A stretch of 64,000 bases of DNA, taken from the NCBI RefSeq assembly GCF_030013595.1, contig NZ_CP122768.1. The stretch is one strand, 5' to 3'. Positions 18,687-19,565 of this stretch are shown piece by piece; the first letter of the stretch is position 1; each line of letters starts with the position of its first letter. A model generated the notes under the pieces. The model was not told the origin of the DNA and did no database searches. It saw only the letters and a program-made list of their open reading frames with translations. The stretch is from Escherichia coli (GTDB lineage Bacteria; Pseudomonadota; Gammaproteobacteria; Enterobacterales; Enterobacteriaceae). A program made the position numbers and the translations under genes.

Positions 18687-19565
18687 GTGAAACTGAAAAT
18701 GCAGGATTTGAGGCTGTTTAATATCGTGTTCGAGAGCGATCCTGGCTGGATACTGGATTTCTCTAACCGCACCTTGTCTGCTTTTTTCGATGAAGAATTG
18801 AACATTGATATTGATGATGAACGTTATCAGAAAGAGGGGGCGTCAAAAGCCAAACGAGTTAGATGCTTGCTGAAACAGGTTGATCGTGAGACCGCTCTGC
18901 GGGTTCTTGGTGCGCTCTGGCAGTATAAAACGGAATCCATGCCTGAACAGGCTGAACAAAGCCGTAATGACTATCTTGCACTGATTTCCCGCTTAGAAAA
19001 CGCTGACACCGATGAAGCCAAAGGCGTTAAGCCTGTCCAGGCATGGCATGGTGTTGACTGGCATTCACTTATCGCTGAAATGAACGAGATGAAATCTCTG
19101 CCGCCACATCCACGTGGTTTTCGGTTTGAAGCCTGGCTTGCTGAACTGTTCAGTATCTTTAAGCTTGCTCCTCGTTCGTCTTTCCGAAATACAGGAGAAC
19201 AGATTGACGGAAGTTTCCGGCTGAATGATGAATTTTACCTGATGGAGGCAAAGTGGCATCAGAAAAGAACGTCGGCTGCCGACCTCCATGTATTTGAAGG
19301 AAAACTCAGTACCAAGGCAACCTGGACACGCGGTGTTTTTATCAGTTGGATGGGGTTTACGCCTGAAGGCCTGACGGCTTTTGGTAAAGGGAAGCGGGTT
19401 ATCTGTGTCAGTGGTTATGATCTTTACCACTCACTGAATCATAGGATCCCTTTACCCGACCTTCTGGATGCTAAAACCCGGCACGCGGCTGAAACGGGAG
19501 AGCCCTATGCTGAGTTCGACCGACTATATGCACTGAAAGACAAACAGTTCGGCACGCTGAAATAA
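18687..19565 (+). CDS. Mrr-like restriction endonuclease catalytic-domain protein with unknown N-terminal domain (292 aa)
   Basis: C-terminal half aligns to the Mrr catalytic core: FEAWLAELF...GEQIDGSF...YLMEAKWHQ...RGVFISWMGFT versus Mrr FEVIVLDVL...GDGGIDGVI...YVQAKRWQN...RGVFITTSGFT. Confidence 0.75.
   Translation: MKLKMQDLRLFNIVFESDPGWILDFSNRTLSAFFDEELNIDIDDERYQKEGASKAKRVRCLLKQVDRETALRVLGALWQYKTESMPEQAEQSRNDYLALISRLENADTDEAKGVKPVQAWHGVDWHSLIAEMNEMKSLPPHPRGFRFEAWLAELFSIFKLAPRSSFRNTGEQIDGSFRLNDEFYLMEAKWHQKRTSAADLHVFEGKLSTKATWTRGVFISWMGFTPEGLTAFGKGKRVICVSGYDLYHSLNHRIPLPDLLDAKTRHAAETGEPYAEFDRLYALKDKQFGTLK

What the first reader, a model, noticed from the sequence alone, without database searches (positions are those of the whole stretch)
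18687..19565. Mrr-type nuclease domain fused to an unrecognised N-terminal domain, in AT-rich cargo
The C-terminal about 130 aa align to the Mrr catalytic core (the spaced D, E-x-K and RGVFI blocks noted in the feature evidence), but the N-terminal about 150 aa do not look like the Mrr winged-helix DNA-binding domain. Single-gene nuclease fusions of this kind are frequent standalone defence or abortive-infection effectors. It is flanked by IS remnants and a frameshifted YagK/YfjJ-like gene.
Basis: partly seen in the sequence, partly recalled or inferred. Interest (0 to 1): 0.6.

Follow-up and report, generated by a model that had tools for sequence, protein, structure and literature searches.

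The report
AbiJ-NTD2 sensor fused to Mrr-type nuclease
This is a real, intact single gene on an E. coli mobile island that joins a DNA-cutting domain to an N-terminal domain described in 2013 as AbiJ-NTD2, so it is an untested member of a predicted anti-phage family, not a new kind of protein.

Summary
The ORF at 18687-19565 (+) is real. It is 292 aa with a GTG start and a strong Shine-Dalgarno site, and is identical to RefSeq WP_001519098.1 "restriction endonuclease". It is under strong purifying selection (dN/dS about 0.06 in both domains).

Residues ~125-282 form an Mrr-type PD-(D/E)xK nuclease. E148, D174, E187 and K189 are invariant across the family.

The N-terminal domain covers residues 1-105, not ~150. 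It is not the Mrr winged helix, but it is not unrecognised either. A profile built only from nuclease-fused copies hits the N-termini of Abi_C (AbiJ HEPN) and Ymh-HEPN proteins at 1e-20 to 1e-30. Foldseek finds the same fold in front of Abi_C, DUF4145, Ymh and TIR effectors. This matches AbiJ-NTD2 of Anantharaman et al. 2013, who already listed its fusion to Mrr-family nucleases. Homologs named "DUF3644" fit a misannotation that paper noted.

The gene is standalone MGE cargo: 462 of 5426 complete E. coli genomes, about 1400 plasmids and an ICE, with no conserved neighbour. It is absent from sequenced phage genomes and from PADLOC.

Most likely it is a one-protein abortive-infection-type sensor-nuclease. 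This is inferred and no experiment exists. It is a new member of a known, computationally described kind, of modest interest.

The parts
18631..18686 (+). Short 5' region that travels with the gene. It includes the Shine-Dalgarno AAGGAGG at 18675-18681.
   Evidence: This is the only upstream stretch conserved between the E. coli island copy and a Klebsiella IncF plasmid copy. Similarity is lost further upstream. The sequence was read. The consensus scan found no sigma-70 promoter here.
18687..19001 (+). N-terminal domain, aa 1-105, of AbiJ-NTD2 type. It consists of helix 5-14, a beta-hairpin around G20-W-I-L-D-F-S26, then helices 27-38, 54-64, 67-84 and 86-104. The conserved signature is GYVLDFS...SKxxRLRxF.
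19002..19058 (+). Interdomain linker, aa 106-124. It is poorly conserved.
   Evidence: The linker has no regular secondary structure in the model apart from one isolated bridge residue. Its columns are variable in the alignment. Its dN/dS is 0.2, higher than either domain.
19059..19565 (+). Mrr-type PD-(D/E)xK nuclease module, aa 125-292, plus the stop codon. The catalytic codons are E148 (19128-19130), D174 (19206-19208), E187 (19245-19247) and K189 (19251-19253).
   Evidence: Pfam Mrr_cat matches aa 144-248. The catalytic residues are invariant. The model has an alpha-beta-beta-beta-alpha-beta core. The best Foldseek PDB matches are MspJI (1e-4), then the nuclease domains of Cdn1, Can2, Card1 and Avs4. 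The same module at about 50% identity follows at least 19 unrelated N-terminal regions in other proteins.

Best explanation
The gene encodes a single-polypeptide sensor-effector protein of the abortive-infection or conflict-system type. Residues 1-105 are an AbiJ-NTD2-type regulatory or sensor domain. A flexible linker joins it to an Mrr-type PD-(D/E)xK DNase at residues ~125-282.

Shown here:
- the domain identities;
- intact catalytic residues;
- purifying selection on both domains;
- the same N-domain fused elsewhere to HEPN RNases (Abi_C, Ymh, DUF4145) and TIR domains;
- the same nuclease subfamily fused to many other N-terminal regions;
- carriage as a standalone gene on islands, plasmids and an ICE.

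Inferred (following the hypothesis of Anantharaman et al. 2013): the N-domain keeps the nuclease inactive until it meets an invader-derived or infection-induced cue. The released DNase then cuts DNA, which stops the phage or plasmid directly or kills or arrests the infected cell. The N-domain signature (GYVLDFS hairpin, S53-K54, R59) stays the same whichever effector follows. I therefore infer that it recognises a common ligand or partner, not a fast-evolving phage protein. The basic G-x-S-K...R-x-R motif at a helix N-terminus suggests a phosphate-bearing ligand such as a nucleic acid or nucleotide.
For: Domain identities:
- Mrr_cat at aa 144-248 with invariant E148/D174/E187/K189.
- PD-(D/E)xK fold, with MspJI, Cdn1, Can2, Card1 and Avs4 nuclease domains as best PDB matches.
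- A profile of the N-domain hits Abi_C- and Ymh-fused proteins at 87-119 bits. Their C-terminal domains were confirmed by Pfam: Abi_C in 9 and Hypoth_Ymh in 1.
- Foldseek finds the same N-domain in front of Abi_C, DUF4145, CHP02391 and TIR proteins.
- The literature definition of AbiJ-NTD2, its Mrr-REase fusion and the sensor/antitoxin hypothesis are in PMC3710099.

Modularity:
- The same N-domain residues are conserved across effector types.
- The nuclease module sits behind at least 19 distinct N-terminal regions, including a 1240-aa Roc-COR-LRR protein.

Selection: dN/dS is 0.06 in each domain.

Standalone MGE cargo with varying neighbours:
- An E. coli CP4-like island that also carries type I R-M, RhuM and TA genes.
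- An IncFII plasmid, beside EcoRII R-M.
- Yersinia plasmids.
- A Pectobacterium ICE.
- A Klebsiella IncF plasmid beside VapBC and CcdAB.
- No methyltransferase partner, no RNA family and no repeats next to the gene.
Against: - No experiment on this protein or on any AbiJ-NTD2 protein was found. A 2026 review says AbiJ itself has no mechanistic information.
- There was no hit in PADLOC or PHROGs.
- The trigger, the substrate and the abortive outcome are all inferred.
- The N-domain was not compared directly with the published prototypes (BF1118, gi 91784007).
- The copy in this window sits in a decaying stretch with IS remnants and a frameshifted neighbour, so its expression here is unknown. 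No consensus promoter was found.
Confidence: 0.6

Rival explanations
1. It is a type IV (modification-dependent) restriction endonuclease like Mrr or MspJI. The N-terminal domain would read modified DNA and the nuclease would cut it directly, with no abortive component.
For: The catalytic domain is Mrr_cat. The best solved structural match is the modification-dependent enzyme MspJI. There is no cognate methyltransferase beside the gene, as expected for type IV enzymes. RefSeq names it 'restriction endonuclease'.
Confidence: 0.15
2. It serves the mobile element and not the host. It could be a stabilisation or inter-element competition module, for example by degrading DNA of cells or rivals that threaten the element. 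It could also be an accessory nuclease for recombination or resolution.
For: Homologs lie on about 1420 plasmid records, mostly Klebsiella. One sits next to VapBC and CcdAB maintenance genes. On Enterobacter IncFII plasmids the gene overlaps the stop of a serine resolvase gene by 4 bp. Others sit beside a Tn3 transposase or an integrase, or inside an ICE.
Against: No partner (resolvase, integrase or antitoxin) is conserved across contexts. A single protein has no obvious labile antidote for post-segregational killing. The N-domain's other fusion partners are toxin-type effectors, not recombination enzymes.
Confidence: 0.15
3. It is an inactive relic in a decaying island and has no current function.
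For: It is flanked by IS256 and IS3-type remnants and a frameshifted YfjJ-like gene. No consensus promoter was found upstream. Many plasmid copies are truncated to aa 155-292.
Against: The ORF is intact and at least 99% identical in 427 E. coli records. dN/dS is 0.06 in both domains. The catalytic and N-domain signature residues are invariant.
Confidence: 0.05

Closest known systems
AbiJ-NTD2 + Mrr-family REase fusion proteins (Anantharaman, Makarova, Burroughs, Koonin, Aravind 2013, Biol Direct 8:15; example gi 91784007)
   Same: It has a ~100-aa, mostly helical N-terminal domain with a conserved strand after helix 1, followed by an Mrr-type nuclease. The same N-domain is shared with AbiJ/Abi_C, Ymh and TIR proteins. 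Relatives are mislabelled DUF3644, as that paper noted.
   Different: No difference in architecture was found. The published description is one table row with a Burkholderia example. This enterobacterial subfamily, its distribution and its catalytic residues were not described there.
AbiJ (Abi-859) / 'abortive infection family protein' with Abi_C HEPN domain (PF14355)
   Same: It shares a homologous N-terminal domain with the GYVLDFS...SKxxRLRxF signature, a similar size (255-290 aa), and a single-gene, sensor-plus-toxin layout.
   Different: The effector here is a DNase (Mrr_cat), not a HEPN RNase, and there is no Rx4-6H motif. The protein is therefore not an AbiJ. It is also not established that lactococcal AbiJ itself carries NTD2 and not another of the five NTDs.
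EcoKMrr (type IV methyl-directed restriction enzyme, E. coli K-12)
   Same: It has the same catalytic fold and the same (D/E/Q)xK...RGVFI(T/S) blocks. BLASTP gives 28% identity over aa 181-248.
   Different: It lacks the Mrr_N winged-helix DNA-binding domain, the N-terminus is unrelated, and the rest of the protein does not align.
Mrr-type nuclease effectors of multi-domain immune proteins (Avs4, Cdn1, Can2/Card1)
   Same: The nuclease domain is used as an interchangeable effector behind a sensor domain. These appear as structural matches to the C-terminal half.
   Different: Those use STAND NTPase or CARF/SAVED-type sensors and known triggers (phage portal, cyclic oligoadenylates). Here the sensor is a small helical domain of unknown ligand, and there is no NTPase.

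Membership tests
Mrr_cat / PD-(D/E)xK nuclease superfamily | Profile match to PF04471 | tested here: met
   Mrr_cat matches aa 144-248 with i-E 6.5e-5 and 23.5 bits. 20 of 25 relatives match at E<=0.001, with a best value of 7.8e-10. The match of the query itself is weak.
Mrr_cat / PD-(D/E)xK nuclease superfamily | Catalytic E...D...(D/E)xK residues on an alpha-beta-beta-beta-alpha-beta core | tested here: met
   E148, D174, E187 and K189 are invariant in A1. In the 25-sequence alignment A2, E187 is invariant, D174 and K189 are at least 90% conserved, and E148 is not listed as conserved. The model has H140-157, E167-169, E172-179, E182-189, H197-208 and E215-220. Foldseek matches MspJI at 1.2e-4.
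Canonical Mrr (EcoKMrr-like type IV enzyme) | N-terminal winged-helix DNA-binding domain (Mrr_N) and full-length similarity | tested here: not met
   There is no Pfam hit other than Mrr_cat at E<=10. BLASTP to EcoKMrr aligns only aa 181-248.
Canonical Mrr (EcoKMrr-like type IV enzyme) | Cleavage dependent on DNA modification | not testable with these tools
   This needs in vitro or in vivo assays.
AbiJ-NTD2 domain (Anantharaman et al. 2013) | [quoted passage not shown] | tested here: met
   The domain covers aa 1-105. It has helix 5-14, strand residues 18 and 21, then four helices, at pLDDT 93.5. The definition is quoted.
AbiJ-NTD2 domain (Anantharaman et al. 2013) | Occurs N-terminal to the AbiJ-family HEPN domain (Abi_C), and also to Ymh HEPN, TIR and Mrr REase domains | tested here: met
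   The A3 profile hits these ORFs at 1e-20 to 1e-30. Pfam on the hit ORFs gives Abi_C in 9, Hypoth_Ymh in 1 and Mrr_cat in 3. TIR-, DUF4145- and CHP02391-fused structural matches were also found.
AbiJ-NTD2 domain (Anantharaman et al. 2013) | Members were swept into the DUF3644 Pfam model in error | tested here: met
   Many homologs are named 'DUF3644 domain-containing protein' by NCBI or UniProt. Current Pfam finds no DUF3644 in three of them, P0084, P0029 and P0023.
AbiJ-NTD2 domain (Anantharaman et al. 2013) | Sequence homology to the prototype BF1118 (aa 1-102) or to gi 91784007 | not tested
   The prototype sequences could not be retrieved. The supplementary file held as text does not contain them. 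No Bacteroides fragilis entry appeared in the top 120. NTD3, NTD4 and NTD5 are excluded because their Pfam models did not hit. NTD1 is excluded only by its published size and fusion pattern.
AbiJ abortive-infection protein | C-terminal HEPN (Abi_C) domain with an Rx4-6H motif | tested here: not met
   There is no Abi_C hit. The C-terminal half is a PD-(D/E)xK nuclease.
Shedu and other catalogued defence systems (PADLOC-DB 2.0.0) | Match to any system model | tested here: not met
   0 families at E<=1.
Classical type II R-M system | Adjacent cognate methyltransferase | tested here: not met
   No methyltransferase lies next to the gene in E. coli, in Yersinia or Pectobacterium, or on the Klebsiella plasmid. 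The EcoRII R-M beside the Enterobacter copy is a complete separate system.

The most novel reading that the evidence does not exclude
The AbiJ-NTD2 domain may be a ligand-gated or oligomerising switch that is still uncharacterised. It has an invariant signature (G20-Y-V-L-x-F-S hairpin, S53-K54, R59) whichever effector follows, whether Mrr DNase, HEPN RNase or TIR. It has no solved relative by sequence or fold.

If so, this E. coli gene would be a tractable entry point to the trigger and activation logic of a very large family of one-gene immune proteins. More than 5000 Abi_C-fused clusters were seen.
Probability: 0.12. Interest if true: 0.65.

Novelty: new member of a known kind. Interest (0 to 1): 0.3.

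Why it matters
If it defends cells as predicted, this would be a one-gene immunity protein that current defence catalogues miss. It is present in about 8.5% of complete E. coli genomes, including ST131, and on more than a thousand Enterobacterales plasmids. That is relevant to phage-therapy host range and to plasmid traffic.

It would also give a genetically easy E. coli model for the AbiJ-NTD2 sensor domain. The ligand of that domain is unknown, and its relatives number in the thousands. As it stands, the architecture and the hypothesis were published in 2013. The finding mainly corrects an annotation ("restriction endonuclease" or "DUF3644") and does not reveal a new kind of system.

Tried and rejected
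- **Direct family and structure searches on the protein.** NCBIfam, PADLOC, PHROGs and PDB sequence searches, both single-sequence and profile, gave nothing useful.
- **SAVED fusion.** A SAVED hit in a batch Pfam scan at first suggested a CBASS-type nuclease fusion. It belongs to P0159. That protein is a chimera of the first 89 residues of this protein with the SAVED half of a CBASS effector. It is seen on one 3.9x-coverage metagenome contig. I rejected it as evidence for a nuclease-SAVED fusion.
- **N-domain profile search in the large protein database.** It listed only proteins of 200 aa or fewer, so it could not show fusion partners. I used the IMG/VR contig scan plus Pfam, and Foldseek AFDB50, instead.
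- **Search for the BF1118 prototype.** I used an Abi_C-fused profile. No Bacteroides fragilis entry appeared among the best 120.
- **Conserved partner gene.** The upstream genes in E. coli and Pectobacterium are unrelated.
- **RNA antitoxin or repeats upstream.** One sub-threshold Rfam hit lies inside the neighbouring gene, and there are no tandem repeats.
- **Promoter.** There is no consensus sigma-70 promoter in the conserved 55-bp leader.
- **Genome contigs and metagenome-contig scans.** I did not run them, because the cheaper searches had already answered the question.

Full report
**1.

- The window contains an ORF at 18687..19565 on the + strand, 292 aa, starting with GTG.
- The GTG is preceded by AAGGAGG at 18675-18681. 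A Klebsiella plasmid copy has ATG at exactly this position, so the start call is sound.
- The window is an E. coli chromosomal island beside yicL/nlpA. The gene is identical to RefSeq WP_001519098.1, annotated "restriction endonuclease".
- Pfam finds one domain, Mrr_cat (PF04471), at aa 144-248 with E=6.5e-5.
- NCBIfam, PADLOC, PHROGs and PDB sequence searches find nothing.
- In an alignment of 21 homologs of 47-88% identity, E148, D174 (GEQIDGSF), E187-A-K189 (LxEAKW) and R215-GVFIS are invariant.
- BLASTP against EcoKMrr aligns only aa 181-248 at 28% identity.
Catalytic residues are not lost, and the protein is not identical to canonical Mrr over its full length.

**2. It is a real gene under selection**

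- There are 780 homologs at E<=1e-3 in the 90%-clustered database. There are 2662 representative clusters in the 50%-clustered one.
- Against an 86%-identical copy on a Klebsiella IncF plasmid, dN/dS is 0.066 overall. It is 0.062 for aa 2-105, 0.057 for aa 125-292 and 0.2 for the linker.

**3. Anatomy**

- The full-length AlphaFold model has pLDDT 86 and pTM 0.73. It shows a helical N-terminal domain, a stretch at 105-124 without regular secondary structure apart from one bridge residue, and then a PD-(D/E)xK core.
- The N-terminal 105 residues modelled alone give pLDDT 93.5. The elements are helix 5-14, a short hairpin around residues 18-21, and helices 27-38, 54-64, 67-84 and 86-104.
- Proteins that share only the C-terminal module start matching at query residues 124-136.
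- Foldseek of the full model against the PDB gives MspJI at 1.2e-4. Weaker matches are the nuclease domains of Cdn1, Can2, Card1 and Avs4.

**4. What the N-terminal domain is**

- Several homologs are named "DUF3644 domain-containing protein", although current Pfam finds no DUF3644 in them.
- A text search for DUF3644 led to Anantharaman et al. 2013 (PMC3710099). Their Table 2 defines AbiJ-NTD2 as follows:
  - it is about 100 aa, mostly helical, with a conserved strand next to the first helix;
  - it is fused to AbiJ, Mrr-family REase (gi 91784007) and TIR;
- I tested this lead in four ways:
  - A profile of the N-domain built only from nuclease-fused proteins (A3) was used to scan IMG/VR contigs, which returned 15 loci.
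  - The ORFs at 13 of these loci, those aligned, were scanned with Pfam. Nine carry Abi_C (the AbiJ HEPN domain), one carries Hypoth_Ymh (another HEPN family) and three carry Mrr_cat.
  - The A3 HMM scores the Abi_C- and Ymh-fused ORFs at 87-119 bits, which is E 1e-20 to 1e-30 even with Z set to 1e9.
  - Foldseek of the N-domain model against AFDB50 finds it at the N-terminus of proteins described as Mrr-domain, "abortive infection protein-like C-terminal domain", DUF4145, CHP02391 (Ymh) and TIR. TMq is 0.74-0.90 and identity 23-45%.
- The residues conserved in nuclease-fused and in Abi_C-fused copies are the same: G20, Y/W21, V22, L23, F25, S26, F33, I42, Y47, S53, K54, R59, F/L61 and L77.
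- The Pfam models for AbiJ_NTD3, NTD4 and NTD5 do not hit.
- Every descriptor of AbiJ-NTD2 that I could test is met. The one test I could not run is a direct comparison with the prototype sequences.

**5. The nuclease is also a mobile module**

- Among the best 150 representatives, 43 proteins carry this nuclease subfamily at about 45-55% identity behind N-terminal regions that the A3 profile does not recognise.
- These regions fall into at least 19 sequence groups. They include one common ~145-aa type, a transmembrane type and a 1240-aa Roc-COR-LRR protein.
- A SAVED hit in the batch scan is not such a fusion. It belongs to P0159, a chimera of residues 1-89 of this protein with the SAVED half of a CBASS effector, found on one low-coverage contig.

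**6. Context and distribution**

- In E. coli the gene is in 462 of 5426 complete genomes. Almost all copies are chromosomal and at least 99% identical, and carriers include ST131.
- It always lies in the cargo part of a CP4-like element, which carries CbtA/CbeA, antirestriction, JAB/RadC, DUF932 and YfjJ-like genes.
- In this window the same island also carries a type I R-M system, RhuM and a RelB-family antitoxin.
- Elsewhere the neighbours differ:
  - on Enterobacter IncFII plasmids the gene overlaps a serine resolvase gene by 4 bp and sits next to EcoRII R-M;
  - on Yersinia plasmids it sits beside a Tn3 transposase or an integrase;
  - in Pectobacterium it is in an ICE;
  - on a Klebsiella IncF plasmid it is beside VapBC and CcdAB.
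- The upstream genes in E. coli and Pectobacterium are unrelated.
- Only about 55 bp upstream travel with the gene.
- tblastn finds 1420 plasmid records, of which 344 are near full length. Many Klebsiella plasmids keep only aa 155-292.
- None of 50,697 deposited phage genomes has it.
- There is no Rfam family or tandem repeat next to it.
- It is therefore a standalone one-gene module of mobile elements.

**7. Mechanism**

- What is shown is the architecture, the intact active site, selection on both domains, two-way domain shuffling and the MGE cargo context.
- What is inferred is that the N-domain senses a cue and gates the DNase, and that the outcome is abortive infection or direct destruction of invading DNA. 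This follows the proposal of Anantharaman et al. 2013.
- The N-domain signature is invariant across effector classes. I therefore infer a common ligand or partner, not a rapidly evolving phage protein. The basic G-x-S-K...R-x-R motif at the start of a helix suggests a phosphate-bearing ligand.
- No experiment supports any of this. A 2026 review states that no mechanistic information exists even for AbiJ, whose escape mutants map to phage single-strand annealing proteins.
- The rivals are a type IV modification-dependent enzyme, an element-serving stabilisation or competition module, and an inactive relic. They are weighed in the structured sections of this report.

**8. Comparison and novelty**

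- The protein works like a one-chain sensor-effector Abi protein.
- It belongs to the Mrr_cat superfamily but is not a canonical Mrr, because the winged-helix test is not met.
- It is not an AbiJ, because it has no HEPN domain.
- It matches no catalogued defence system in PADLOC.
- Its architecture, AbiJ-NTD2 plus Mrr REase, was already listed in 2013. It is therefore a new, unstudied member of a known, computationally defined kind.
- The main value of the finding is a better annotation and an easy experimental handle on a very large family. More than 5000 Abi_C-fused clusters were seen.
- Interest is modest.

Noticed in passing
window 17629-18359 (+), indel at 17836-17841: The upstream YagK/YfjJ-like ('inovirus Gp2 family') gene is split into two frames here by a 1-nt deletion in an A-run (A6, against A7 in strain 2009C-3133 where the gene is intact at 243 aa). 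This could be a true pseudogene or a homopolymer sequencing error.
   Followed up: yes
window 41500-64000: The high-GC (60-68%) right part of the window is a Tn21/TnAs3-family transposon with a mer operon and a class 1 integron. Its arrangement is 99.9% identical to the chromosome of E. coli 042 over 91% of the segment. It differs from strain 2009C-3133, which matches the window only between about 8 and 41 kb.
   Followed up: partly
window about 31079-40046 (-); L001 34081-43048: There is a type I R-M system (hsdM, hsdS, hsdR) followed by two hypothetical genes (L001 35151-36547, about window 32149-33545) and a RhuM-family gene. These are genes 'embedded' beside an R-M operon, of the kind reported to encode extra defence functions.
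   Followed up: no
window 14985-16115 (+): A 376-aa hypothetical ORF (WP_000147748.1) lies in a very AT-rich segment of 34% GC. It has a Cys-rich, basic N-terminus. No function is annotated.
   Followed up: no
window 21327-21767 (+): An island-borne H-NS family paralog of 146 aa lies 1.8 kb downstream, between IS remnants. It could silence the AT-rich cargo.
   Followed up: no
L035 1523-2452 (protein P0159): In a type II CBASS operon (SAVED effector, CD-NTase, E1-like, JAB) the effector's N-terminal nuclease half is replaced by residues 1-89 of this protein's N-domain at 94% identity. It occurs on one metagenome contig at 3.9x coverage, so it may be an assembly chimera or a recent recombination.
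   Followed up: partly
plasmid hits H47-H56 (for example NZ_MK347230.1 101290-101703): Many large Klebsiella, Enterobacter and E. coli plasmids keep only an unannotated 3' fragment of a homolog (aa 155-292, 84.8% identity). This suggests repeated truncation of the gene on plasmids.
   Followed up: no
L017-L021 5354-6873: On Enterobacter hormaechei IncFII plasmids the homolog's start codon overlaps the stop of a serine resolvase gene by 4 bp, which suggests co-transcription. An EcoRII R-M system lies immediately upstream.
   Followed up: no
[not shown]
   Followed up: no
(tool behaviour): The profile search with a 105-aa query listed only proteins of 200 aa or fewer. It omitted the 292-aa family members that must score equally well. 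Fusion partners cannot be read from that output.
   Followed up: yes
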